From Sphingobacteriia bacterium (GTDB lineage Bacteria > Bacteroidota > Bacteroidia > UBA7662), in assembly GCA_009927485.1 (NCBI GenBank), contig RFMW01000091.1, positions 12,319 to 76,318 of the forward strand: 64,000 nucleotides of DNA, read 5' to 3'. Positions 26,110 through 63,104 of the stretch are shown in pieces; the stretch's first letter is position 1, and each line of letters begins with the position of its first letter. The notes beneath the pieces are model-generated. The model made no database searches. It was not told the DNA's origin and saw only the letters and a list, made by a program, of their open reading frames with translations. Position numbers and translations under genes: made by a program.

Positions 26110-27990
26110 TTATTGAACGAGAATTTTGCAAGGGTGGATGGCGCCGTTAAAGTCCTTTAATAACAACAGATAAATACCCGGCGTCAATGCCCTGGACGGG
26201 ATTTCAAAGGCATAAGACCCTTCCGATTCTTGTTCAGTTTCGTAAGAAATTTGACCCATCAAGACCCCTGCCGTATTCCATAGTTGGGCGGAGCTCAATT
26301 GACCAGGGCCTTTAAAGTAAATAACCGGATTAGAGGCCTGCACAGGATTCGGAACCACAGACCATTGGGTAGGTAGGGTATTTTCATCGGAGCGGATGCT
26401 TGCCGGATAACGAAAAGGTCCCCCCATGACCGGTCGGATCATCCAAGAACCAGCAATGGAGGATTCCTCCCAAATCCCTTGGGTATTGTACCAACGGTTG
26501 TATCGGACCAAGGTATCGTTGCGATCCAGTCCGATATTGATAAGCCCTGGAGTTTCTTGTTGCCAACCTATATAGAATGAATCCTGCACCAATAAAGGGG
26601 GATTGATGGCAAAGTATTGAAAATGCCCAATGCTATCTCCGTAACGTGGACGGTAAGGGATAGGCGATCGAAAAATTTCGGTAGCGGCTCTGCCCCCTTC
26701 TTGGATTTGCGACCAAACCTTGAGGACAAACAATTCGTTGGAGGCATTGGCCGCAGCTTGGGTGAAGTACATCCAAACACCCCTCAGGGTATCGGGTTTG
26801 GATAACCAAAATTTATTCGCACAAGAACCGGCAACCACGTTAATTCCGTAGCCGGTTTCGGCGGTTCCATCATCGTAAGCAAACTCATTCCACAGCTTGA
26901 CGCTCTCGTTCAAGGTATCGTTACGAGGTAGGTTGTCAACAGTGGCCTGCACCACGTATTCAATTCGCAGGGTCAGGCTATCCGCACTGCTTGTTGGAAC
27001 GGCAAACCGTTGAAAAATCAACCCCGAACTGCTCAACGTCCCCAGGGTTAACGAAGGCAAGGGACTGCTGTTGATCAACGGAACGGTAGCGTTTTGGGCA
27101 AAGACCCGGTAAGAACGATCGTAGGTTACTGAACTCCCGTTGTTCACCACCGATACACCGTGGGTTGGGTTCAAGAACCTGGAGGTATCCTCCATAAATT
27201 GATTGAGCGGCATGCTGCGGTAAGGTCGCAAATACGTTGCGTTGGTTTGCACCAAAGCAAGATCATCAAAGAGGGTATCCGAACTTGACCTGCCGGCGTC
27301 GAGGAACACGTAATCCAAATGCCAGCAATCCACCAAACCCGTAAGTGACCCGTAATTGACCCATCGCATACGCATGCCATCGTAGAGGTACTGCGGATCG
27401 CTTAGGCCAATCACCGCAAATCGAAAGGGTTGAACCGAGGAACCGTTGGCATGCCAAACCTTGTTCCAAGACCCGCTGTTGGACTGAAATTCCAAAATCA
27501 ACGAGTCGGTGGGCTCAGGGCTTTCGGACCAACCGGCCGGTTGATACGCAAAAGTCAAAAACAACGAATCAACCGAGGAATATCCTCCAAGACGAAGAGG
27601 CCTCGAGGTCAAATAATCCGCTCGACCCGATGCGGACAAGGCGCTGTTATCGTAAGGCCTGCCCGTAGAATCCAAACCATCAAAGGTCACAAATCCTTGA
27701 CCAGGAGGTCGAATCGCCATATCGTTGTTACGAAAAACATGACGATCAGCCCAGCGCTGAGGGTCCGGAAAATAACCTGAATAGGAGAAGTCATCCACGA
27801 AGGGCAAAGCCAACGTATCGGTGGATCGCTGAGTCCTTGCATGAAGGCTTGCTGCACTCGGGGCAGGATGGTCACGAAGAATGGAGTTATGCCGAATAGG
27901 GTAAATACCCTCCTGGGCCATAACCTTGACCCAACTTGCCAACGACAAGAGCCCAACAAGTCCAAGACAGCGAATCAATCGGCCAACCAT
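26110..27990 (-). CDS. secreted protein with T9SS type-A C-terminal sorting domain
   Basis: Signal peptide. C-terminal approx 80 aa (WSVVPNPVQASNPVIYF...TPGIYLLLLKDFNGAIHPCKILVQ) matches the Por/T9SS CTD-A pattern. Confidence 0.75.
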   Translation of the reverse strand: MVGRLIRCLGLVGLLSLASWVKVMAQEGIYPIRHNSILRDHPAPSAASLHARTQRSTDTLALPFVDDFSYSGYFPDPQRWADRHVFRNNDMAIRPPGQGFVTFDGLDSTGRPYDNSALSASGRADYLTSRPLRLGGYSSVDSLFLTFAYQPAGWSESPEPTDSLILEFQSNSGSWNKVWHANGSSVQPFRFAVIGLSDPQYLYDGMRMRWVNYGSLTGLVDCWHLDYVFLDAGRSSSDTLFDDLALVQTNATYLRPYRSMPLNQFMEDTSRFLNPTHGVSVVNNGSSVTYDRSYRVFAQNATVPLINSSPLPSLTLGTLSSSGLIFQRFAVPTSSADSLTLRIEYVVQATVDNLPRNDTLNESVKLWNEFAYDDGTAETGYGINVVAGSCANKFWLSKPDTLRGVWMYFTQAAANASNELFVLKVWSQIQEGGRAATEIFRSPIPYRPRYGDSIGHFQYFAINPPLLVQDSFYIGWQQETPGLINIGLDRNDTLVRYNRWYNTQGIWEESSIAGSWMIRPVMGGPFRYPASIRSDENTLPTQWSVVPNPVQASNPVIYFKGPGQLSSAQLWNTAGVLMGQISYETEQESEGSYAFEIPSRALTPGIYLLLLKDFNGAIHPCKILVQ

Positions 27991-28715
27991 AAGTCCACAA
28001 ATTCCAACGCCTTGACCATCCCCTTATTGCCACCGGGCATGGGACGTTGGCGAACGATGAGGGCCTTGGAGCTGTCGGATACCTCACCCAAGTAGTTAAC
28101 GGAACCCAAGGACAAGGCCGACTCAGCAAGAAAAATTCGGGCTTCGTCCAAGGTAAGTCCGGTCAGGGAAGGAACCTCCACCAAAGAATCCATATTGCCC
28201 ATGCCAATAACCAAATCAATGGCAGTTCCACGAGCTAGCGGGGTGCCGGCAGCCACGCTAAGGCCATTGCGTCTACCCTCCAGCACGACATTGTGCGCTA
28301 TATCGGGCTGATACAGCAGTTGCCCAACCTTGAATCCTTTGTTTTGCAAATCAAGCGTGGCTTTACGCAAGGACAAATCCGTCAACTGGGGAAGTGCCAC
28401 CATGGGCAAGTCTGCCAAATTGAGGGTCAGATACACCCTCCTGCCTTTTTTGACCAAAAGTCCGGACGAAGGGTCTGTCGCAACCACGGCTGAAGGATCG
28501 AAACCTTCGGTAAATTGGGAATCTGTTACCACAGCTTCCAAGTCCAAGGCCCTTAGAAGTGATTCTGCTTCTTCCTGCGATTTACCCAACAAAGTTGGAA
28601 CCTCTATTTCCTCACCGTGGGAGGTGTACATGTTCAATGCCGCTAGGATGCCAAGGACCAACAACAAGTTGAGGCCCAGGAATTGTATCCAAAATTTGCG
28701 AACAGGCGACATCAT
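27975..28715 (-). CDS. PASTA domain-containing protein
   Basis: N-terminal TM anchor followed by three PASTA-like repeats (VPTLLGKSQEEAESLL..., LPQLTDLSLRKATLDLQNKGFKV..., VPSLTGLTLDEARIFL...). Conserved position downstream of ddl in Bacteroidetes. Confidence 0.75.
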   Translation of the reverse strand: MMSPVRKFWIQFLGLNLLLVLGILAALNMYTSHGEEIEVPTLLGKSQEEAESLLRALDLEAVVTDSQFTEGFDPSAVVATDPSSGLLVKKGRRVYLTLNLADLPMVALPQLTDLSLRKATLDLQNKGFKVGQLLYQPDIAHNVVLEGRRNGLSVAAGTPLARGTAIDLVIGMGNMDSLVEVPSLTGLTLDEARIFLAESALSLGSVNYLGEVSDSSKALIVRQRPMPGGNKGMVKALEFVDLWLAD

Positions 28716-31459
28716 GGGTTTCGTTTTCTTTCAAATCCTAACGCGATAATACGCTCAATAAATTGATGGGGGGTATACCCTGCGAGTGCCGCCTGATGGT
28801 AAATGCAAGTGGCCGGTGTCATGCCCGGCAAGGAGTTGATCTCGATGATCACCACGCGAATATCTCCTACTTTGGGAATTCCTACAAAGGCGTCGATCCT
28901 GCAGTAGCCTTCCACACCGGCTACTTCCGCCGCTTTACGAAGCGTCTCCTGCACCCTACCCATGATCCTTTGTTGTACTGAAGGATCCAACGCGAAGCGA
29001 GCCGGGGTGATGTTGGTGCCTTGTCCTGCCAGAAACTTTTCTTCGAGGCTAAGGATTCCCTCGCCGGCAATGCTTTCGGAAGGCTCAAAGACTTCGTAAT
29101 CCCGATGACCTCCAGGTTTGGATGCAACCAACATGGCGCCGGTGATTTCCAAGAAATACTCGTTTTCCCGTCCCGATATAAACTCCTCGAGCAAGAATGC
29201 CTTCGAACGGTTAAACCCATCCGATCCGGGAACCTTCAGCAAGGTAGCCGCTTCTACGGGCCACTGATCGTCTTCGCGGAAAGTCAATTGCGCATAGGCA
29301 TCCAATTCTTCCCGGCAGGTCAACCGATAGACCGCGGTGGAACAGCCATCGTCTAGCGGTTTGGCAATCATGGGCCAAATTCCTTCTCCCACGAGCAAAG
29401 AATTGTTGATTCCCTTTTGCCAATCATCCGATGTTATTCGGCGCTGTTCGGCAACTTGCAGACCGGATGCACGAAGCGCTTGACCGGTTAAATACTTATC
29501 GATGGTGAGCGAACTGCTTTGGACCCCCGATCCGTTGTAGGGTAATCCGAGGGTGTCCAATCGTTCTTGCAAGGCCCCGTCTTCGCCAGGTCGACCGTGC
29601 AAAGCAATAAATACAAAATCAACTTGATTCGCCAAATCCTCCCATGCCACAGGTCTCGCGTACTCCAAGGCATTGGGGGCGAAGGTCTCCAGAATTTCCT
29701 TTAAATCGTTGCGGATTTGCCCTATCACCCTTGGCCTAGAAACCTCACGAATACCAGCCAAAATATCGTCTGCATTATCCTTCAGATGAAGATGCATGGG
29801 CAATTCATGGAGATCCCATTGCTGGGCGTTACCGCTCAGAAACAGGGATATGGGTTCGTAACCCTCGGTAGAAGAAATTTTTTCGTAGATATTCCGCCCT
29901 GACTCCACCGAAATATGCCTTTCTGAGGAGTATCCCCCCATGAGTACCCCGATTCGTTTGCGATTTCCCTGCCCTTGCATCGCCTGATGAAGAGATTCAC
30001 GAAGCTGTTCGGCGAGTTTACCGCAGCGTATCGAAGATGGATTCGCCTTGAGCCTTGCGTTAAGGGAGGCACTGATAATGTAGGTAAGAAAAGCGGAAGG
30101 GCTTAGGCCAATTTCCGCCGCCTGCTGAAAAAAGAAGGAGGAAGGCATCATCCCCGATGTAGTATTGGGATCGTTCAAATAGATCTGCCCAGCGGTGGTC
30201 ACAAAACCGTCAATGCGCGCATAGACCGAGAAATCAAAGGCTTTGAACAAATGCTCACAGGCCCTACGGATCAGGTGAATTTGTTCATCCGGCAAATCAA
30301 TCGGCGTTTTTTTGCGTGCAAGACCGGGAAGATATTTGGAACGGTAATCGTAAAATTCTTGGGAAGAGGTGATTTCTGTGGGCGGCAAGGCAGACACTGT
30401 TGCGTCTGATTTTTCCAAAACAATGCAGGAAAATTCTTTGCCAACAATGATTTCCTCAATCAAAACATCGGTTTCTGAATCCAAGGATTCCAAATCGCAA
30501 ACATCACCGGTGAATTCATGGAGAAACCAATATTCCCAAGCGGTGGGCGAAAACCAAACCGTCCCCGAGGTTCTGTCCCTCAGTGGGAATCCGATACCTG
30601 TACGAAAATCGGCCAAACGATCCAAGGCCGTTTCTCCAGCCTCCTGATATTCCGCCTTTCGGATCTTGGCCGTGAAAAAGGCTTTGTCGACAGCCTCTTC
30701 AAGGGCCAAGGCATCCACGTTTCGCAACATGGTCAGACCGATACTGCTCCCTTGGTTGGCCGCCTTGACCACGCAACCGTTCGGAAATTGTGATATGATC
30801 TTCCCAATCCACTGTTCCCTCGCGGATGCACTCTCCCCCACCCAATCTGCCCTGGATATGGCCAAAAATCTTGGAACATCCCAACCTGCAACCTGCATAT
30901 CGTGACGCTGTGCGACTTTGTTCATGGCCCATGCAGCCGCTCGAGGCCCACAGCCCGTGTAGGGTATTCCCCAAAAATCCAGCATCGATTGCACCCTACC
31001 GTCTTCACCGTTCTTTCCATGCAAGGCCATAAAGACCAAATCAACTCGATGGGATAAGTCCTCCCAGGCCAAAGGTTTCCCGATGGCCTTTCTCCAACTT
31101 TCTGCATGAAGGTGAGCCTCTTCGTGCTGTTCGGCATAGGGCATCCAGGCCCTGGATGACCCTTCCTTGGATGATTCAACGAGCTTGGATGATTCAACGA
31201 GCAAAGCCCTGGGCTGGTGGTGGATCGCAAGGCTGGATGGATAAAAGTCGCGAATACTACCTTTGTACAGGAAGGGCCAGTCCAATTCCACCAATTGCCC
31301 GAAGGAATCCACAAAAATTGGTACCGCTTCAAATATGCTTTTGTTCAGCAAGTCATAAACCGTCCGCCCTCCCGCAAAAGAAACTTCCCTTTCGCGGGAA
31401 TTTCCACCGAATAGAATCCCAACTTTAATTTTTGGAGACCGTGAAGAAACTTGATTCAA
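28712..31459 (-). CDS. ddl: tandem double D-alanine--D-alanine ligase-like ATP-grasp protein (915 aa)
   Basis: Two complete Ddl-like units in one ORF. Unit 1 motifs: KVGILFGGNSREREVSFAGG, HGKNGEDGRVQSMLDFWGIPYTG, VVKAANQGSSIG. Unit 2 motifs: KRIGVLMGGYSSERHISVESG, HGRPGEDGALQERLDTLGLPYNG, EINSLPGMTPATCIYHQAALAG. Confidence 0.8.
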   Translation of the reverse strand: MNQVSSRSPKIKVGILFGGNSREREVSFAGGRTVYDLLNKSIFEAVPIFVDSFGQLVELDWPFLYKGSIRDFYPSSLAIHHQPRALLVESSKLVESSKEGSSRAWMPYAEQHEEAHLHAESWRKAIGKPLAWEDLSHRVDLVFMALHGKNGEDGRVQSMLDFWGIPYTGCGPRAAAWAMNKVAQRHDMQVAGWDVPRFLAISRADWVGESASAREQWIGKIISQFPNGCVVKAANQGSSIGLTMLRNVDALALEEAVDKAFFTAKIRKAEYQEAGETALDRLADFRTGIGFPLRDRTSGTVWFSPTAWEYWFLHEFTGDVCDLESLDSETDVLIEEIIVGKEFSCIVLEKSDATVSALPPTEITSSQEFYDYRSKYLPGLARKKTPIDLPDEQIHLIRRACEHLFKAFDFSVYARIDGFVTTAGQIYLNDPNTTSGMMPSSFFFQQAAEIGLSPSAFLTYIISASLNARLKANPSSIRCGKLAEQLRESLHQAMQGQGNRKRIGVLMGGYSSERHISVESGRNIYEKISSTEGYEPISLFLSGNAQQWDLHELPMHLHLKDNADDILAGIREVSRPRVIGQIRNDLKEILETFAPNALEYARPVAWEDLANQVDFVFIALHGRPGEDGALQERLDTLGLPYNGSGVQSSSLTIDKYLTGQALRASGLQVAEQRRITSDDWQKGINNSLLVGEGIWPMIAKPLDDGCSTAVYRLTCREELDAYAQLTFREDDQWPVEAATLLKVPGSDGFNRSKAFLLEEFISGRENEYFLEITGAMLVASKPGGHRDYEVFEPSESIAGEGILSLEEKFLAGQGTNITPARFALDPSVQQRIMGRVQETLRKAAEVAGVEGYCRIDAFVGIPKVGDIRVVIIEINSLPGMTPATCIYHQAALAGYTPHQFIERIIALGFERKRNP

Positions 31460-31502: not shown

Positions 31503-31853
31503 TTATGATCCGTGAAGGTATTCCTTCCTTTCCAGCAAGGTGGCCCTGGATTCCACGTGATCGGGGTCAGGTACACAGCAATCGACCGGGCATACTGCTG
31601 CACATTGAGGCTCTTCATGAAAACCCTCGCATTCGGTGCACTTGTCGGGTACGATAAAATAGACATCATCGCTCACAGGAGTCATGGGATCTTGGGCATG
31701 CACCAAGGACCCGTCTGCTCGCTGAACCAGCTCACGAAGTTGGGTACCCTCTGCATATTTCCACGAGATACCGCCCTCGTAGATGGCGTTGTTGGGACAT
31801 TCCGGTTCGCATGCACCGCAATTGATGCATTGGTCGGTAATCATGATGGCCAT
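31503..31853 (-). CDS. 4Fe-4S ferredoxin
   Basis: [12 protein letters not shown] and CTECEGF...CAAVCP cluster motifs. 116 aa. Confidence 0.85.
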
Positions 31854-31896
31854 TCAATCCTATTTTGCGGGTCAAATTTACAACAAAGACCCTCCT

Positions 31897-32997
31897 ATGC
31901 CGTCAAACCCCAGCGCCGCGAGTCTCGTCCATCTGCTGCATCGGTGGGGTCAATGGATGGGTTCGACCTCCAATCGCGATGATTGGTCGGAATGGTCCTC
32001 GTCGGTGTCCGTACAAAACCCCTGGTTCGAGCCCGAAATGCTGAAGCAAGCCCTGAAGGCATGGTCCATGGCCTTGGAGCTCCGTTCACTGGAACGGTGG
32101 CTTGCCCAAGACGAGGATGCACTCCTCCTCCAAAGGTCGCCTCGAAATGTTGGGCTCATCCTCCCCGGCAATTTTCCTTTCGCAGGTTTGCATGATGTCC
32201 TCTGCACCTTGATCGCAGGACATACGGCCCTTGTCAAACCCTCGTCCGATGATGCAGGACTCGTATCCTGGGCGATTCAAGGGCTGCTGGCCTTGCAACC
32301 TGAATGGAAAAATCGCTTCGCGATTGTGGAAAAACTCAACCGCGTGGATGCCATGATCGCTACGGGTTCAGCTTCTTCCCTACCTTATTTTGAGCAGTAT
32401 TTTGGACAAATTCCACACCTGTTTCGATCCCACCGAAATTCCATCGCCATCCTGGATGGCAAGGAAAAGACAGAAGATTGGATCGGTTTGGGGCAGGATA
32501 TTTTTCTCTATTACGGCAAAGGTTGCCGAAACGTATCCAAGGTATTGGTCCCGGAGGGCATGTCACCGCAACAACTGTTGGACGGATTGCAACAGTACCC
32601 TTGGGAGGGCCGCAACCATCGTTATCGAAACAATTTAGACTATCAGCTGGCCTTGCATATGCTGAATCGAAAGCCATTCACCCACAACGGATCGGTTATC
32701 TTGGTGGAAAGCTCAAAGATCTCGTCTCCCCTTGCCGTATTGCACTTTGAATATTACCAATCGGAACAAGAATTGGCCCGCCTGATCCTGGAGGCAATGC
32801 CCGTAACGCAATGCTGGTCAGGCAATCAACTCGTTGTTCAGTGGGGACAACGGGCTTCCTTCAAGAATCAATTTGATGAAGCGCAATGGAACAACTGGTG
32901 TTACCATGCGGTCGAGTTTGGTCAATGCCAATTCCCTGAAATTGACCGGTATGCGGATGCTGTGGATACCTTGGCTTTTCTACGAAGCGTACAGTAG
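31897..32997 (+). CDS. acyl-CoA reductase (LuxC family)
   Basis: LuxC-like architecture with GxGC catalytic-Cys region (YYGKGCRNVSKV). Conserved next to ferredoxin in Bacteroidetes. Start chosen downstream of the ferredoxin start. The ORF extends back to 31783. Confidence 0.55.
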   Translation: MPSNPSAASLVHLLHRWGQWMGSTSNRDDWSEWSSSVSVQNPWFEPEMLKQALKAWSMALELRSLERWLAQDEDALLLQRSPRNVGLILPGNFPFAGLHDVLCTLIAGHTALVKPSSDDAGLVSWAIQGLLALQPEWKNRFAIVEKLNRVDAMIATGSASSLPYFEQYFGQIPHLFRSHRNSIAILDGKEKTEDWIGLGQDIFLYYGKGCRNVSKVLVPEGMSPQQLLDGLQQYPWEGRNHRYRNNLDYQLALHMLNRKPFTHNGSVILVESSKISSPLAVLHFEYYQSEQELARLILEAMPVTQCWSGNQLVVQWGQRASFKNQFDEAQWNNWCYHAVEFGQCQFPEIDRYADAVDTLAFLRSVQ

Positions 32998-34141
32998 AAT
33001 TTTACGCAAAACGTGAAGGGTACGATCGATTTCTTCTTCGGTGTTGTGAGAACCCAGCGAAAATCGGACCGCCGTACGATCGTTCGGCATGCCAATTCCG
33101 TTGAGCACATGGGATCTCGACTCCGCACCTGAGCTGCAAGCACTTCCCCCCGATGCACAAATCCCTTCGATATCCAAATGAAAGAGCAACATTTCTCCTT
33201 TGGGATGGGGCGGAAACGACACGCTTAACACCTGGTACATGGTGGGTCCGTCGATATTGCCGTTGAAGGTTACCCCCGGGGATAGCCTCCAGGATTCCCT
33301 GCTTGAGCCTATTCTTCAATCTCGCAATGCGTTCACGCCGTTGATCCATGCTCGATACCGACAATTCCAAGGCCAAACTCATGCCTGCGATTCCCGGTAA
33401 ATTTTCGGTACCACCACGCATATTTCTTTCTTGAGATCCGCCTGCCAACATAGCGCCCAACGATAGCCCACCGCGGATATAGATAAACCCTACCCCTTTG
33501 GGTCCATAAAATTTATGAGCAGATCCGCTGGCCATATCCAAACCCATCTCCGTGAAATTCAATGGATAATGGCCAACGGTTTGGACCATATCGGAATGAA
33601 AAAGTGCGTTATGATCTTTACAAAGGGCAGCGACCTTCTCGATTTCCAGCATATTACCGATTTCGTTGTTACCGTGCATCAGGGTGACCAAAGTTGGAAT
33701 ATTCAAATCCCTTGACTCCTTCAACCATCGCTGGAGTTGGTTCAAATCCAAAATGCCTTGGGCGTCGTTGGGCAACCAACAAATTTCGGTGCCATGTACT
33801 TTATGTAGCTGTTCCAAGACATGGGTAATGGCATGATGCTCCAACGATGAAGATATGATACGACGAATGCCTAAATTTTCGACCGCACAACGGCAAGCCA
33901 TGTTATCCGACTCGGTTCCACCAGAGGTAAAGAAAATCTCCGAAGGCGAACAGCCTAACGCTTGGGCCATGCTTTTGCGAGCCTTTTCGATGATGATGCG
34001 TGATTCTCTTCCCAGGAAATGTATGGAGGAGGGATTTCCGTAACATCGAACCAAGAGCTCGGACATGGCCGAAGCCACCTCCGGGTGTATCGGGGTGGTG
34101 GCAGAATTATCCAAATAAATGCGGGGGAGGTCGTTGGTCAT
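32980..34141 (-). pseudogene. cysteine desulfurase (NifS/IscS family) with +1 frameshift at about 33275
   Basis: N-terminal 290 aa (IYLDNSATTPIHPEV..., PLP Lys SAHKFYGPKGVG) in one frame. The true C-terminus (GSACSSG active-site Cys, FSLGSHNTEEEID) is in another frame (ORF 32980..33240). They join at a C5/G4 homopolymer at 33273-33281. Confidence 0.8.
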
Positions 34142-35513
34142 GAACCTAGGATTTGACGGGCTTGGGAGGCGAGTTCAGCGGCAGCGTGCGCATGATTAGC
34201 CTCGGAATAAATACGCAATATGGGTTCGGTATTGGATTTTCGGACATGCAACCAACCCTCCTCCAAATCAAGTTTGAGTCCATCGGACCAATTCTTTACC
34301 GCATTCGGAAAGGCATCGGCCAAACGTTGCAAGAGCAATTCAGGGTCTGCTTGAGGATCAAAGGTTACCTTTTCTTTGGCCATGGCGTAGGCCGGGTAGG
34401 TGGACCTCCATTGGCTCATGGTCAGACCTTGTTCCACATAATGCGTGAGAAACAAGGCAATCCCCACCAAAGCGTCCCTTCCATAATGCAGATCGGGTAG
34501 GATAATGCCTCCATTCCCTTCCCCGCCAATCACAGCACCGGATGCTCGCATCGCCTTGACGACATGCACCTCGCCAACAGGAGAGGCATGGTAAGGCTGT
34601 TCGTACCGAGCGCAAACATCGCTTAAGGCCCTGGACGAGCTCAAATTCGAAACCGCAGGTCCAGGTTTTTGACTCATGACATAGTCCGCCACGGCAACTA
34701 GGGTATATTCCTCCCCAAACAATTCCCCGTTCTCCATAACGAAGGCGAGCCGATCCACATCGGGGTCCACCACGATGCCCATGTGGGCTTGACGGGATAC
34801 CACCTCCGTGCAAATTTCATCCAAATGCTCCCGAAGCGGCTCCGGGTTATGCGCAAAACGACCGTTGGGCTCGTCATTCAATACCTCAATTCGATGGACC
34901 CCTAATTGGGTCAAAGGGCGGGAACCGCCACGGCCCCCGACGAATTGATTCCATCCACCACCACGTGCAATCCTGCGGCGGCAATGGCTTGTCGATTCAC
35001 CAAGGGTAATGCCAAAATGTCTTGAATATGAGCCTCCAACGCGGAATCATCCTGATGGTATTGCCCCAAATTGTGCACGGTGGCGTAAGGTATGGGTTCC
35101 CCTTTTTGGACCTTTTGGAGTAGAGCGGCACCCTGTTCGGAACCAATGAAGCAACCATGATGATCCAATAATTTCAAGGCATTCCACTCCTCAGGGTTAT
35201 GGGAGGCCGTCAAAACAATACCACCCGCAGCCCCCACTCGAGGCACCTGCATCTCGAGGGTTGGTGTGGTGGTCAACCCTAAATCAATCACGTCCAAACC
35301 GCAAGCCATCAAAGTACCGCAGACCAAGCGGCTCACCATATCACCCGAAATGCGAGCGTCTCGACCAACCACCACGGTGCGACCATGCCCCTGTTCCAGC
35401 AACAAGGCCGCATAGGCATTGACGAAGGATACCACATCATGAGGCGTCAAATTCGAACCGGGTTGACCCCCTATGGTGCCGCGAATTCCCGAAACAGATG
35501 CTATTAAAGTCAT
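34138..35513 (-). pseudogene. glmM: phosphoglucosamine mutase GlmM, split by a -1 frameshift at about 34915
   Basis: N-terminal part (MTLIASVSGIRGTIGG, active-site TASHNPEEWN) ends at TGA 34911. The rest (LTQLGVHRIEVLNDEPNGRFAHNPEP...DPDVDRL) continues in another frame from TTG 34914. Orthologue alignment gives ...VPALLTQLGV..., implying one missing A/T in a short A-run. Confidence 0.8.
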
Positions 35514-42874: not shown

Positions 42875-43193
42875 GTTGCGGTTGCGCGTTCCGCCGCTGG
42901 CACTTCGGTGCTGGAGGAAAGTCCGGACAACGCAGAGCGCCAGGCTTTGGAAACAAAGGCCGGGGTAACCCGGTAGAAAGTGCCACAGAAAAGAACCGAC
43001 CGCAAGGTCAAGGGTGAAAACGTGAGGTAAGAGCTCACGCGCTCCGATGGTGACATCGGTTTGGGGTAAACCTCCTGGGTTGCAAGGCCGTGTATACCGG
43101 GGCAGCGCTGCTCGCGCGTTCCCGGGGGGTAGGCCGCTTAGATAAATGGTGGAAATGCCGCAAGGCATACAGAATCTGGCTTATAGCGCAACC
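42875..43193 (+). ncRNA. rnpB: RNase P RNA, bacterial type A
   Basis: P4 5' strand GGAGGAAAGTCCGGAC. AGGGTGAAAACGTGAGGTAAGAGCTCACGC (P10-12 region). ACAGAATCTGGCTTAT P4 3' strand. P1 pairing GGTTGCGC...GCGCAACC. Followed by a T6 run. Confidence 0.85.
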
Positions 43194-43274
43194 TTTTTTG
43201 TTAAATTCTACCCATTTTCACTTGATAATTTCAGTTTTAAACAAATTCTCTAACTTTGTATAGTAAATTAGACA

Positions 43275-63005: not shown

Positions 63006-63090
63006 CATTTGCGGCGGAGAGATGGCAGAGTGGTCGATTGCGGCGGTCTTGAAAACCGTTGACTGTAACAGGTCCGGGGGTTCGAATCCC
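63006..63090 (+). tRNA. tRNA-Ser (anticodon UGA), class II with long variable arm
   Basis: Acceptor GGAGAGA/TCTCTCC. Anticodon loop CT-TGA-AA. Long variable arm. T-loop GGTTCGAATCC. Discriminator G. CCA not encoded. Confidence 0.85.
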
Positions 63091-63104
63091 TCTCTCTCCG
63101 CATC

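What the first reader, a model, noticed from the sequence alone, without database searches (positions are those of the whole stretch)
28712..31459. Tandem double D-Ala-D-Ala-ligase-like protein (915 aa) in the canonical ddl-PASTA locus
Bacterial Ddl is normally a single 300-370 aa ATP-grasp unit. Here one uninterrupted ORF encodes two full Ddl-like units. Each has the N-terminal GGxSxEREVS motif, the central HGxxGEDGxxQ...G(I/L)PYxG motif and an ATP-grasp core. The units have diverged asymmetrically. Unit 1 keeps the KxxNQGSS ATP-binding loop but has ND-P-N where E-x-N is expected. Unit 2 keeps EINSLPGMT but has a degenerate KPLDDGCS loop. This suggests either a pseudo-dimer in which each half contributes part of the chemistry, or two ligase specificities in one chain (for example D-Ala-D-Ala together with D-Ala-D-Ser or D-Lac, or another D-amino-acid dipeptide). 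The gene sits where the single ddl normally sits, immediately upstream of the PASTA-domain protein, so it is presumably the cell's only Ddl.
Basis: partly seen in the sequence, partly recalled or inferred. Interest (0 to 1): 0.6.

Follow-up and report, generated by a model that had tools for sequence, protein, structure and literature searches.

The report
Two-unit D-Ala-D-Ala ligase with PASTA partner
This gene really does encode two different D-alanine–D-alanine-ligase units in one chain; it belongs to a large, old, uncharacterised family that databases label as ordinary Ddl, and it is coupled to (in some lineages fused with) a membrane PASTA cell-wall-binding protein.

Summary
Window 28712-31459 (-) is one intact 915-aa ORF with two complete Ddl units that are 24% identical to each other. 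It is not an assembly artefact. At least 580 species-representative genomes carry intact full-length relatives, including cultured Hymenobacter and Pontibacter, where RefSeq calls them plain "D-alanine--D-alanine ligase".

Unit 1 keeps every DdlB catalytic residue except E270→D. Unit 2 keeps all ATP, Mg and catalytic residues but has S150→C, Y216→F and Y210→L. These states are invariant in 120 family members. They are also invariant in a 33%-identical ~800-aa sister family labelled as other phyla, so the tandem is ancient. Both units evolve equally slowly.

Three new points emerged:
- The downstream PASTA membrane protein overlaps the ligase stop codon (ATGA), follows it in 36 of 71 loci, and is fused to it in ten cluster representatives.
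- Sister-family members are fused to MurF, the enzyme that consumes D-Ala-D-Ala.
- Some lineages keep only unit 1 plus a vestige of unit 2.

Most likely unit 1 makes D-Ala-D-Ala and unit 2 is a second active ligase with an altered second-substrate site. Whether this is the cell's only Ddl could not be tested. I rate it a new variant of a known kind, of moderate to high interest.

The parts
28712..31459 (-). Tandem D-Ala-D-Ala-ligase gene (915 aa plus TGA stop); no predicted membrane segment
   Evidence: ORF list; Pfam; NCBIfam Ddl subfamily models 350-354 bits against cut-offs of 243-262; hydropathy maximum 1.25
30044..31459 (-). Unit 1 (aa 1-472): Ddl unit with the canonical substrate triad (E23, S238, Y376) and the unusual D430-x-N432 metal motif
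30485..30673 (-). Insert of about 60 aa in unit 1 (aa 263-325) between the central and C-terminal domains; present in the ~900-aa Bacteroidota family, absent from E. coli DdlB and from the ~800-aa sister family
   Evidence: Alignments; the sister-family unit 1 spans the whole Ddl model in about 345 residues; modelled as a small folded subdomain with block pLDDT mostly 81-94; low sequence conservation, 35% mean pairwise identity
30170..30172 (-). Codon GAT = D430, at the position of DdlB E270 (Mg2+ ligand)
   Evidence: D in 120/120 family members, in 29/29 sister-family members, and as D-x-N in the stand-alone unit-1-type proteins
29963..30043 (-). Inter-unit linker (aa 473-499), modelled as a long helix and poorly conserved
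   Evidence: Helix 477-499 in the AF2 model; 21% mean pairwise identity
28715..29962 (-). Unit 2 (aa 500-915): second complete ATP-grasp ligase unit with a remodelled second-substrate/omega-loop site
   Evidence: E513, H621, K655, K700, S707, E758, E771, K808, R854, D856, E873, N875 and G879 are invariant; the omega-loop (798-815) has low pLDDT, as a mobile lid would
29342..29344 (-). Codon TGT = C706, at the position of DdlB S150
   Evidence: C in 120/120 and 29/29 sister-family members
29033..29035 (-). Codon TTT = F809, at the position of DdlB Y216
   Evidence: F in 120/120 and 29/29 sister-family members
27975..28715 (-). Partner gene: single-pass membrane protein (TM helix aa 9-27, YTSHGEE motif, three PASTA repeats), overlapping the ligase stop codon and probably translationally coupled to it
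   Evidence: Pfam PASTA 82 bits, 3 stretches; matches the TM+PASTA part (333-550/563) of the PknB_PASTA_kin model; ATGA overlap and TM helix; downstream on the same strand in 36/71 loci; fused to the tandem Ddl in 10 cluster representatives
26110..27990 (-). 626-aa protein with a signal-peptide-like N-terminus and a weak T9SS C-terminal sorting domain; conserved as the second gene downstream
   Evidence: Second downstream gene in about 30 of 80 loci; TIGR04183 20.5 bits, below the cut-off of 23; Por_Secre_tail (weak) on the equivalent gene in L087. Its link to the ligase is positional only

Best explanation
The gene encodes a cytoplasmic two-unit D-Ala-D-Ala ligase from an ancient, widespread, uncharacterised family.

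Shown:
- Both units are complete ATP-grasp Ddl folds.
- Both evolve under equally strong constraint.
- Each carries a fixed, different active-site signature.

Inferred:
1. Unit 1 has E15, S150, S151, K215, Y216, R255, D257, N272 and S281 intact, with only E270→D. It is the D-Ala-D-Ala synthetase that feeds MurF for peptidoglycan pentapeptide synthesis.
2. Unit 2 keeps all ATP, Mg2+ and acyl-phosphate residues. It has replaced the Ser150-Tyr216 hydrogen-bond pair that closes the lid over the second D-Ala with Cys-Phe, and Tyr210 with Leu. It is a second active ligase whose second-substrate selectivity or kinetics differ, for example D-Ala-D-X or a depsipeptide. This parallels DdlB Y216F and the natural Phe-containing D-Ala-D-Lac ligases.
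3. The two units pack as one rigid body that stands in for the usual Ddl homodimer.
4. The enzyme works with the downstream single-pass PASTA protein. That protein places peptidoglycan- or lipid II-binding PASTA repeats in the periplasm and tethers or regulates the ligase at the inner membrane.
For: Real and conserved:
- More than 120 full-length homologues.
- At least 580 species genomes, with the 80 inspected all intact.
- RefSeq entries in Pontibacter and Hymenobacter.

Active sites:
- Residue mapping to E. coli DdlB.
- Every catalytic position is invariant in 120 sequences, including D430, C706 and F809.
- The same signature appears in 29 representatives of a 33%-identical sister family.
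- Unit 1s and unit 2s form separate clades, so there was one ancient duplication.

Equal constraint: 60% against 62% mean pairwise identity; dN/dS about 0.07 for both units, with dS saturated.

Unit 1 can stand alone: proteins of about 570-634 aa keep a unit-1-type enzyme, including D-x-N, plus only a vestigial unit-2 N-domain.

Peptidoglycan role:
- Sister-family members are fused to MurF (TIGR01143 298-321 bits, cut-off 288.6).
- dapF and a glmM-like gene lie nearby.
- A canonical single ddl occupies the same position upstream of a PASTA homologue in L086.

PASTA link:
- ATGA overlap.
- PASTA lies downstream in 36/71 loci, mostly -4 to +15 nt from the ligase stop.
- Ten 1197-1285-aa representatives are tandem Ddl - linker - TM - PASTA fusions.
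- PASTA domains of Stk bind lipid II (PMC6135852).

Rigid two-unit body: AF2 pTM 0.87, mean pLDDT 84.6.
Against: - No enzymology exists for any member, so products are inferred from residues only.
- E270→D in unit 1 touches a Mg2+ ligand and could alter or lower activity, so unit 2 rather than unit 1 could be the main D-Ala-D-Ala synthetase.
- Neither unit alone reaches the curated Ddl cut-offs (212 and 156 bits against 243-262). Both are more distant from the canonical Bacteroidota-type Ddl of L086 than E. coli DdlB is.
- PASTA is absent downstream in about half of the loci, and PASTA homologues also occur without any ddl nearby.
- The unfused PASTA protein has only about 8 cytoplasmic residues with which to contact the ligase.
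- Whether a separate canonical ddl exists in these genomes could not be checked.
- The pseudo-dimer geometry was not inspected because no coordinates were available.
Confidence: 0.5

Rival explanations
1. Unit 2 is not a second enzyme. It is a nucleotide- or ligand-binding regulatory or structural partner (a pseudo-enzyme) that only supplies the dimer interface or allosteric control for unit 1.
For: - Unit 2 lacks the Ser150/Tyr216/Tyr210 set of characterised D-Ala-D-Ala ligases.
- Some lineages have reduced unit 2 to a vestigial N-domain while keeping unit 1.
- Unit 2 alone scores only 156 bits against Ddl models.
Against: - Every residue needed for ATP binding, Mg2+ coordination and acyl-phosphate chemistry is invariant in 120 family members (K97, K144, E180, E187, K215, R255, D257, E270, N272, plus E15 and H63), and nearly all are also fixed in the 29 sister-family members: E180 is Q in one and G276 is A in ten.
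- Unit 2 is as conserved as unit 1. Pseudo-enzymes normally lose such residues.
- DdlB Y216F is itself an active enzyme that has been crystallised with ADP and a phosphorylated inhibitor (PDB 1IOW, listed).
Confidence: 0.22
2. Both units simply make D-Ala-D-Ala. The protein is a covalently linked version of the normal homodimer with no division of labour.
For: - Both units have complete catalytic machinery.
- Ddl normally acts as a dimer (established knowledge).
- The Y216F mutant of DdlB still binds substrate analogues (PDB 1IOW).
Against: - A redundant duplicate would not keep a fixed, unit-specific signature (D430 only in unit 1; C706, F809 and L803 only in unit 2) through divergence down to 33% identity.
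- The units are only 24% identical to each other.
Confidence: 0.13
3. The tandem protein is not the housekeeping Ddl. It is an accessory ligase making another dipeptide or depsipeptide, while a canonical ddl elsewhere in the genome supplies D-Ala-D-Ala.
For: - Both units are highly diverged from canonical Ddl, and each alone falls below the curated cut-offs.
- NCBI labels some relatives 'family protein' or 'hypothetical protein'.
- Whole genomes could not be searched.
- Sister-family loci are not in cell-wall clusters.
Against: - It occupies the position that a canonical single ddl holds next to the PASTA gene in a related contig.
- MurF fusions in the sister family tie the architecture to the D-Ala-D-Ala-consuming step.
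- Unit 1 has the full D-Ala-D-Ala substrate triad.
- It has a housekeeping-like distribution and strong conservation across at least 580 species.
- No second ddl lies in the window or in any of the 80 loci.
Confidence: 0.15
4. Artefact: two adjacent ddl genes were joined by a sequencing error. The window does show indel-type frameshifts nearby.
For: Two neighbouring genes, a glmM-like gene and a cysteine desulfurase, are split by 1-nt frameshifts at homopolymer runs in this window.
Against: - Hundreds of independent assemblies hold the same uninterrupted ORF.
- A conserved helical linker joins the units.
Confidence: 0.01

Closest known systems
Canonical D-alanine--D-alanine ligase (E. coli DdlB, PDB 2DLN/1IOV; DdlA; EC 6.3.2.4)
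   Same: - Same Pfam domains.
- Unit 1 keeps 17 of the 18 DdlB functional residues scored; of the other two, Y210 is F in most homologues and L282 is F.
- Same genomic position next to a PASTA gene as a single ddl in L086.
   Different: - Two units in one 915-aa chain instead of a 300-370-aa homodimer subunit.
- E270→D in unit 1.
- S150→C, Y216→F, Y210→L, S281→T and L282→C in unit 2.
- Extra inserts in both N-domains, and a 60-aa insert in unit 1.
- Each unit alone scores below the curated family cut-offs.
DdlB Y216F mutant (PDB 1IOW) and natural Phe-containing D-Ala-D-Lac ligases such as Leuconostoc LmDdl2 (PDB 1EHI)
   Same: Unit 2 has Phe at the Tyr216 position. In those enzymes this change goes with depsipeptide (D-Ala-D-Lac) formation (established knowledge: Park, Lin & Walsh 1996). 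Both structures are among the fold matches.
   Different: - Unit 2 additionally has Cys for Ser150 and Leu for Tyr210.
- It scores far below the D-Ala-D-Lac and Van model cut-offs (75-102 bits against 550-775).
- No vanH/vanX-type genes are nearby.
- The host is a Gram-negative phylum, where vancomycin pressure is not expected.
Natural chimeras of peptidoglycan precursor enzymes (MurC-Ddl of Chlamydia, MurE-MurF of Bordetella)
   Same: Covalent fusion of cytoplasmic peptidoglycan-precursor enzymes. The sister family even has tandem-Ddl-MurF fusions.
   Different: - This is a fusion of two diverged copies of the same enzyme.
- The published survey of Mur chimeras lists MurE-MurF, MurC-Ddl, MurC-MurB, MurG-MurC, MurD-FtsW and MraY-MurG, but no Ddl-Ddl, Ddl-MurF or Ddl-PASTA (PMC10214165).
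- The NF011171 MurC/Ddl model scores 178 bits against a cut-off of 1015.
PASTA Ser/Thr kinases (PknB, Stk1, PrkC)
   Same: The partner protein matches the TM+PASTA portion of the PknB_PASTA_kin model. The fused versions have the same topology: a cytoplasmic catalytic module, one TM helix, then extracytoplasmic PASTA repeats. PASTA repeats of Stk bind lipid II (PMC6135852).
   Different: - There is no kinase domain. The cytoplasmic module is a dipeptide ligase.
- In the window the two are separate, overlapping genes.
- The host is a diderm phylum.
Carbamoyl-phosphate synthetase large subunit (two tandem ATP-grasp units, PDB 1A9X)
   Different: It belongs to a different ATP-grasp subfamily. No match covers both units of the model. 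Its chemistry and partners are unrelated.

Membership tests
[quoted passage not shown] | N-terminal Ddl domain followed by an ATP-grasp C-terminal domain | tested here: met
   Present twice: PF01820 in 2 stretches, PF07478 in both halves
[quoted passage not shown] | Whole-protein score above the curated cut-off of the Ddl subfamily models | tested here: met
   350-354 bits against cut-offs of 243-262. This is the sum of two units; the equivalog models are all below their cut-offs
[quoted passage not shown] | Each unit on its own reaches the curated cut-off | tested here: not met
   Unit 1 scores 206-213 bits and unit 2 scores 145-156 bits, against cut-offs of 243-262
[quoted passage not shown] | Catalytic and substrate residues of DdlB (E15, S150, K215, Y216, R255, D257, E270, N272, S281) in unit 1 | tested here: inconclusive
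   All present and invariant except E270→D430, a conservative change that is itself invariant
[quoted passage not shown] | The same residue set in unit 2 | tested here: not met
   The ATP, Mg and acyl-phosphate residues are present, but S150→C706, Y216→F809, Y210→L803, S281→T884 and L282→C885
[quoted passage not shown] | Ddl three-domain fold | tested here: met
   [not shown]
[quoted passage not shown] | Single-unit subunit of about 300-370 aa | tested here: not met
   915 aa with two units
[quoted passage not shown] | ATP-dependent synthesis of D-Ala-D-Ala; essential sole supplier for MurF | not testable with these tools
   Needs an enzyme assay, genetics and whole-genome scans. Indirect support comes from MurF fusions in the sister family and from positional equivalence with a single ddl
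Van-type D-Ala-D-Lac (VanA/B/D/F/M) and D-Ala-D-Ser (VanC/E/G/L/N) ligases | Score above the curated exception or equivalog cut-offs | tested here: not met
   Best is VanG, 235 bits against 495 for the whole protein. Unit 2 scores 102 bits against 550 for the D_ala_D_lac model
Van-type D-Ala-D-Lac (VanA/B/D/F/M) and D-Ala-D-Ser (VanC/E/G/L/N) ligases | Accompanying vanH/vanX (or vanT/vanXY) genes | tested here: not met
   The neighbours are a ferredoxin, PASTA, a secreted protein, a thioesterase, a LuxC-like gene, dapF and a glmM-like gene
Bifunctional MurC/Ddl (NF011171) | Mur ligase domains plus one Ddl unit; score at least 1015 bits | tested here: not met
   178 bits and no Mur ligase domain
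Tandem-Ddl family (uncharacterised; defined here) | Two Ddl units in one chain, with D at the E270 position of unit 1, and C and F at the S150 and Y216 positions of unit 2 | tested here: met
   Window protein D430, C706, F809. These are invariant in 120 homologues and 29 sister-family representatives
PASTA Ser/Thr kinase (PknB/Stk1; NF033483), tested for the partner gene 27975-28715 | Kinase domain plus TM helix plus PASTA repeats; score at least 450 bits | tested here: not met
   Only the TM+PASTA part matches (model 333-550 of 563; 80 bits against 450). There is no kinase domain

The most novel reading that the evidence does not exclude
The tandem ligase and its PASTA partner form a kinase-free cell-wall feedback device. 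Periplasmic PASTA repeats sense lipid II or uncross-linked stem peptides. Through the membrane tether they directly tune a two-site cytoplasmic enzyme. Its canonical site makes D-Ala-D-Ala, and its Cys/Phe site makes an alternative D-Ala-D-X terminus or a depsipeptide. The cell would therefore adjust both the amount and the chemistry of its peptidoglycan stem-peptide ends without a phosphorylation cascade.
Probability: 0.15. Interest if true: 0.85.

Novelty: new variant of a known kind. Interest (0 to 1): 0.6.

Why it matters
Ddl is a classic, heavily studied antibiotic target (D-cycloserine) and the determinant of vancomycin susceptibility. It is treated as a single-unit homodimeric enzyme.

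A large branch of Bacteroidota, and a sister group of sequences labelled as other phyla, instead carries a two-unit enzyme. Its second active site has a fixed Cys/Phe replacement of the Ser/Tyr pair that controls which second substrate is accepted. If that site is active, these bacteria may make a second dipeptide or depsipeptide for their cell wall, or they may regulate D-Ala-D-Ala supply in an unknown way.

The fusions to a PASTA membrane protein and to MurF give testable links between precursor synthesis, membrane localisation and sensing of the wall. PASTA proteins in diderm bacteria have no known function.

In practical terms, database annotation as plain "D-alanine--D-alanine ligase" hides the architecture. 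Inhibitor and resistance predictions based on DdlB may not transfer to these enzymes.

Tried and rejected
1. **Sequencing artefact.** Rejected, even though the window has two nearby homopolymer frameshifts.
2. **Recent in-situ duplication of the canonical Bacteroidota ddl.** Rejected. The single ddl of L086 is closer to E. coli DdlB (162 bits) than to either unit (89 bits, and 66+63 bits). The duplication also predates the split of the 900-aa and 800-aa families.
3. **Van-type resistance ligase.** Rejected on model scores and gene context.
4. **"Each half contributes part of one active site".** Rejected, because each unit has a full residue set.
5. **Is it the sole Ddl?** This could not be tested. 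Only the window and ±6 kb of 80 loci were checked.
6. **Pseudo-dimer geometry.** Model coordinates are not exposed. Only pTM 0.87 is available, and no PDB chain aligns across both units. The afdb50 library was unavailable.
7. **PASTA homologue search.** It reached only close relatives (37 hits). Contexts were mixed:
   - tandem Ddl-PASTA (L087)
   - single ddl-PASTA (L086)
   - PASTA-RluD (L088)
   - PASTA-rhodanese with no ddl (L082, L089)
8. **Contexts of sister-family genes** (L083, L084, L085) were uninformative.
9. **Literature.** Eight full-text searches found no description of a tandem Ddl, a Ddl-PASTA link or a Ddl-MurF fusion. One further search failed on syntax.
10. **dN/dS.** It is only indicative, because dS is saturated at 1.6-2.9 and incalculable for one pair.

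Full report
**1. The observation**

- The minus-strand ORF 28712..31459 is uninterrupted and encodes 915 aa from a TTG start.
- Pfam finds the Ddl N-terminal domain twice and the Ddl C-terminal ATP-grasp domain in both halves.
- NCBIfam's generic Ddl subfamily models score 350-354 bits against cut-offs of 243-262.
- Every PDB sequence match is a Ddl, VanA or VanG.
- The two halves (aa 1-495 and 496-915) align at 24% identity, E 2e-23.
- No other Ddl-like sequence lies in the 64-kb window.

**2. It is not an artefact, and it is not rare**

- A search of 5.8 billion proteins returned more than 120 full-length homologues of about 890-935 aa. They are 47-93% identical and cover 98-100% of the query. 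Where named, they are called "D-alanine--D-alanine ligase" or, wrongly, "UDP-N-acetylmuramate--alanine ligase".
- All 80 loci kept hold an intact 888-947-aa ORF.
- Most are Bacteroidota MAGs, but cultured Hymenobacter ruricola, H. koreensis, H. artigasi and Pontibacter cellulosilyticus are included.
- RefSeq holds WP_345223906.1 and WP_187066385.1 as "D-alanine--D-alanine ligase (family protein)".
- The window does contain two 1-nt frameshifts at G/C homopolymers in nearby genes. The assembly probably carries indel errors, but the ligase ORF is unaffected.

**3. Anatomy of the two units**

I mapped both units onto E. coli DdlB, fetched as L001.

| DdlB residue | Unit 1 | Unit 2 |
|---|---|---|
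| E15 | E23 | E513 |
| H63 | H147 | H621 |
| K97 | K181 | K655 |
| K144 | K232 | K700 |
| S150 | S238 | **C706** |
| S151 | S239 | S707 |
| E180 | E335 | E758 |
| E187 | E342 | E771 |
| Y210 | Y370 (F in 108 of 120 homologues) | **L803** |
| K215 | K375 | K808 |
| Y216 | Y376 | **F809** |
| R255 | R415 | R854 |
| D257 | D417 | D856 |
| E270 | **D430** | E873 |
| N272 | N432 | N875 |
| G276 | G436 | G879 |
| S281 | S441 | **T884** |
| L282 | **F442** | **C885** |

- In unit 1 the only substitution in the catalytic set is E270→D430; L282→F442 also differs.
- In unit 2 the whole ATP, Mg2+ and acyl-phosphate set is kept. The changes fall in the second-substrate and lid region.
- Across 120 sequences every one of these positions is invariant, including the non-canonical ones. 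The exceptions are unit 1's Y210 position, noted in the table, and one gapped sequence at E23.
- The two units are equally conserved: 60% against 62% mean pairwise identity. dN/dS is about 0.07 for both, although dS is saturated.
- The variable parts are the N-domain inserts, a 60-aa insert in unit 1 (aa 263-325) and the inter-unit linker.
- Scored alone, neither unit reaches the curated Ddl cut-offs: 212 and 156 bits.

**4. Structure**

- AlphaFold2 with a 48-sequence alignment gave mean pLDDT 84.6 and pTM 0.87.
- A pTM that high for 915 residues implies a confidently fixed arrangement of the two units rather than beads on a string.
- Low confidence is confined to the first five residues, the unit-1 N-domain insert (76-102) and the unit-2 omega-loop (798-815).

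**5. The family is older and wider than Bacteroidota**

An exhaustive HMMER scan of 1.84 billion cluster representatives found 383 proteins at E ≤ 1e-30. Besides about 50 clusters of the ~900-aa type, there are three further forms.

- **A sister family of about 780-830 aa at 31-35% identity.**
  - It has the same unit-specific signature in 29 of 29 representatives: D at E270 in unit 1; C, F and L at S150, Y216 and Y210 in unit 2.
  - In a tree of separated halves, all unit 1s group together and all unit 2s group together. The tandem therefore arose once, before the two families split.
  - Members are labelled Patescibacteria, Legionellales, Gamma- or Pseudomonadota and similar. MAG labels are not reliable.
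- **Ten representatives of 1197-1285 aa.** In these the tandem ligase continues through a low-complexity linker into a TM helix, a YTxHGES motif and PASTA repeats.
- **Proteins of about 570-634 aa.** These have a unit-1-type enzyme, including its D-x-N motif, followed by only a degenerate unit-2 N-domain.

Within the sister family some proteins carry a C-terminal MurF (TIGR01143 298-321 bits, cut-off 288.6). Others carry an N-terminal HTH_3/HigA-like domain.

**6. Neighbourhood**

- In the window the ligase stop overlaps the start of a 246-aa protein (ATGA).
  - That protein has about 8 cytoplasmic residues, one strong TM helix and three PASTA repeats.
  - It matches the TM+PASTA portion of the PknB-type PASTA-kinase model but has no kinase.
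- A homologous PASTA gene follows the tandem ligase on the same strand in 36 of 71 loci with enough flank. The gap is usually -4 to +15 nt. This includes H. koreensis, H. artigasi and Pontibacter.
- A 626-aa secreted protein with a weak T9SS tail is the next gene in about 30 loci.
- In a related metagenomic contig (L086) a canonical single 330-aa ddl sits directly upstream of a PASTA homologue. This ddl has S150, Y216 and E270 intact, and it is closer to E. coli DdlB than to either unit.
  - The tandem gene occupies the same slot without being a recent duplicate of that single gene.
- PASTA homologues also occur without any ddl nearby.
- dapF and a glmM-like gene lie 4-5 kb upstream in the window.

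**7. Interpretation**

Shown:
- It is a genuine, ancient, strongly constrained two-unit Ddl.
- Each unit has a fixed and different active-site signature.
- It has recurrent physical fusion to a PASTA membrane protein and, in the sister family, to MurF.

Inferred:
- Unit 1 is the D-Ala-D-Ala synthetase. It has the canonical substrate triad, it survives alone in some lineages, and MurF fusions tie the architecture to pentapeptide synthesis.
- Unit 2 is a second active ligase. The Ser150-Tyr216 lid pair, which in DdlB governs acceptance of the second substrate, has been replaced by Cys-Phe.
  - From established work on DdlB Y216F and on natural Phe-containing D-Ala-D-Lac ligases, this suggests relaxed or different second-substrate selectivity.
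  - The product cannot be named from sequence.
- The PASTA partner probably tethers the enzyme at the inner membrane and may couple it to periplasmic peptidoglycan or lipid II status. This is by analogy with PASTA kinases (PMC6135852).

The main uncertainties:
- which unit, if either alone, makes D-Ala-D-Ala, since the E270→D change touches a Mg2+ ligand;
- whether unit 2 is catalytic at all;
- whether a canonical ddl co-exists in these genomes;
- how an unfused PASTA protein with an 8-residue cytoplasmic tail would contact the ligase.

**8. Novelty**

- The gene family is present in databases under a routine name, so the sequence itself is not new.
- I found no description of a tandem Ddl, of its asymmetric active sites, or of Ddl-PASTA or Ddl-MurF fusions in eight full-text searches.
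- A dedicated survey of natural Mur-pathway chimeras does not list any of them (PMC10214165).
- I rate it a new variant of a known kind. It would interest cell-wall and antibiotic-target specialists, and it is directly testable with standard enzymology.

Noticed in passing
window 34138-35513 (-), junction at 34911-34914: A glmM-like phosphoglucosamine/phosphohexose mutase gene is split into two ORFs by a 1-nt frameshift next to G/C homopolymer runs. Relatives L002, L003 and L005 encode it as one continuous ORF. This is probably a sequencing indel rather than a pseudogene.
   Followed up: partly
window 32980-34141 (-), shift near 33240-33290: A class-V aminotransferase (cysteine-desulfurase-like) gene is frameshifted near a CCCCGGGGG run. 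Its true C-terminus, with the SGGSACSS motif, is the separate 86-aa ORF 32980-33240. It is the second indel-type defect within 2 kb, which suggests a homopolymer-error-prone assembly.
   Followed up: partly
P0222, P0232, P0234, P0240, P0253, P0272, P0279, P0280, P0287: Proteins of 569-634 aa consist of a unit-1-type Ddl followed by a degenerate remnant of the unit-2 N-domain with no second ATP-grasp domain. The unit-1 part keeps GSS, KY, R-x-D and the unusual D-x-N. This looks like a natural loss of unit 2.
   Followed up: partly
P0257, P0308, P0309, P0311, P0312 (L085 for P0311): Sister-family tandem Ddl proteins carry a C-terminal MurF (1259-1307 aa). This chimera of the D-Ala-D-Ala maker and its consumer is not listed in the published survey of Mur chimeras.
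   Followed up: partly
P0324, P0327, P0332, P0342, P0360 and others: Sister-family tandem Ddl proteins of about 890-927 aa carry an N-terminal HTH_3 (XRE/HigA-like) DNA-binding domain. One source names one of them 'HigA family addiction module antidote'. The meaning is unknown.
   Followed up: no
window 26110-27990 (-); L087 5783-7690; L075 9700-11574: A protein of about 625-635 aa with no Pfam family apart from a weak T9SS C-terminal sorting signal follows the PASTA gene in about 30 of 80 loci. In those loci the conserved gene order is ligase, PASTA, then this secreted protein. In L087 an RluD-like pseudouridine synthase comes next.
   Followed up: partly
L086 3174-5753: A related contig has a YggS-like PLP protein (Ala_racemase_N), a canonical single 330-aa ddl, a PASTA protein and a rhodanese in a row. 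The PASTA-Ddl linkage therefore exists with both the single and the tandem ligase.
   Followed up: yes
window 31783-32997 (+) against 31503-31853 (-): The longest ORF of the LuxC-like acyl-CoA reductase gene overlaps the YfhL-type ferredoxin gene on the opposite strand by about 70 nt. The real start is probably further downstream, because relatives align best from about residue 35-80.
   Followed up: no
window 42878-43199 (+) and 63016-63100 (+): A bacterial class A RNase P RNA (203 bits) and one tRNA. These are ordinary housekeeping RNAs.
   Followed up: no
L002, L019, L030, L034, L050, L064: Several genome records that carry the Bacteroidota-type tandem ligase are titled as Sphingomonadales, Saccharibacteria, Synechococcus, Akkermansia, Bifidobacteriaceae or Rhizobium MAGs. 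These are most likely mis-binned or mislabelled contigs, so MAG labels for this family should not be trusted.
   Followed up: no
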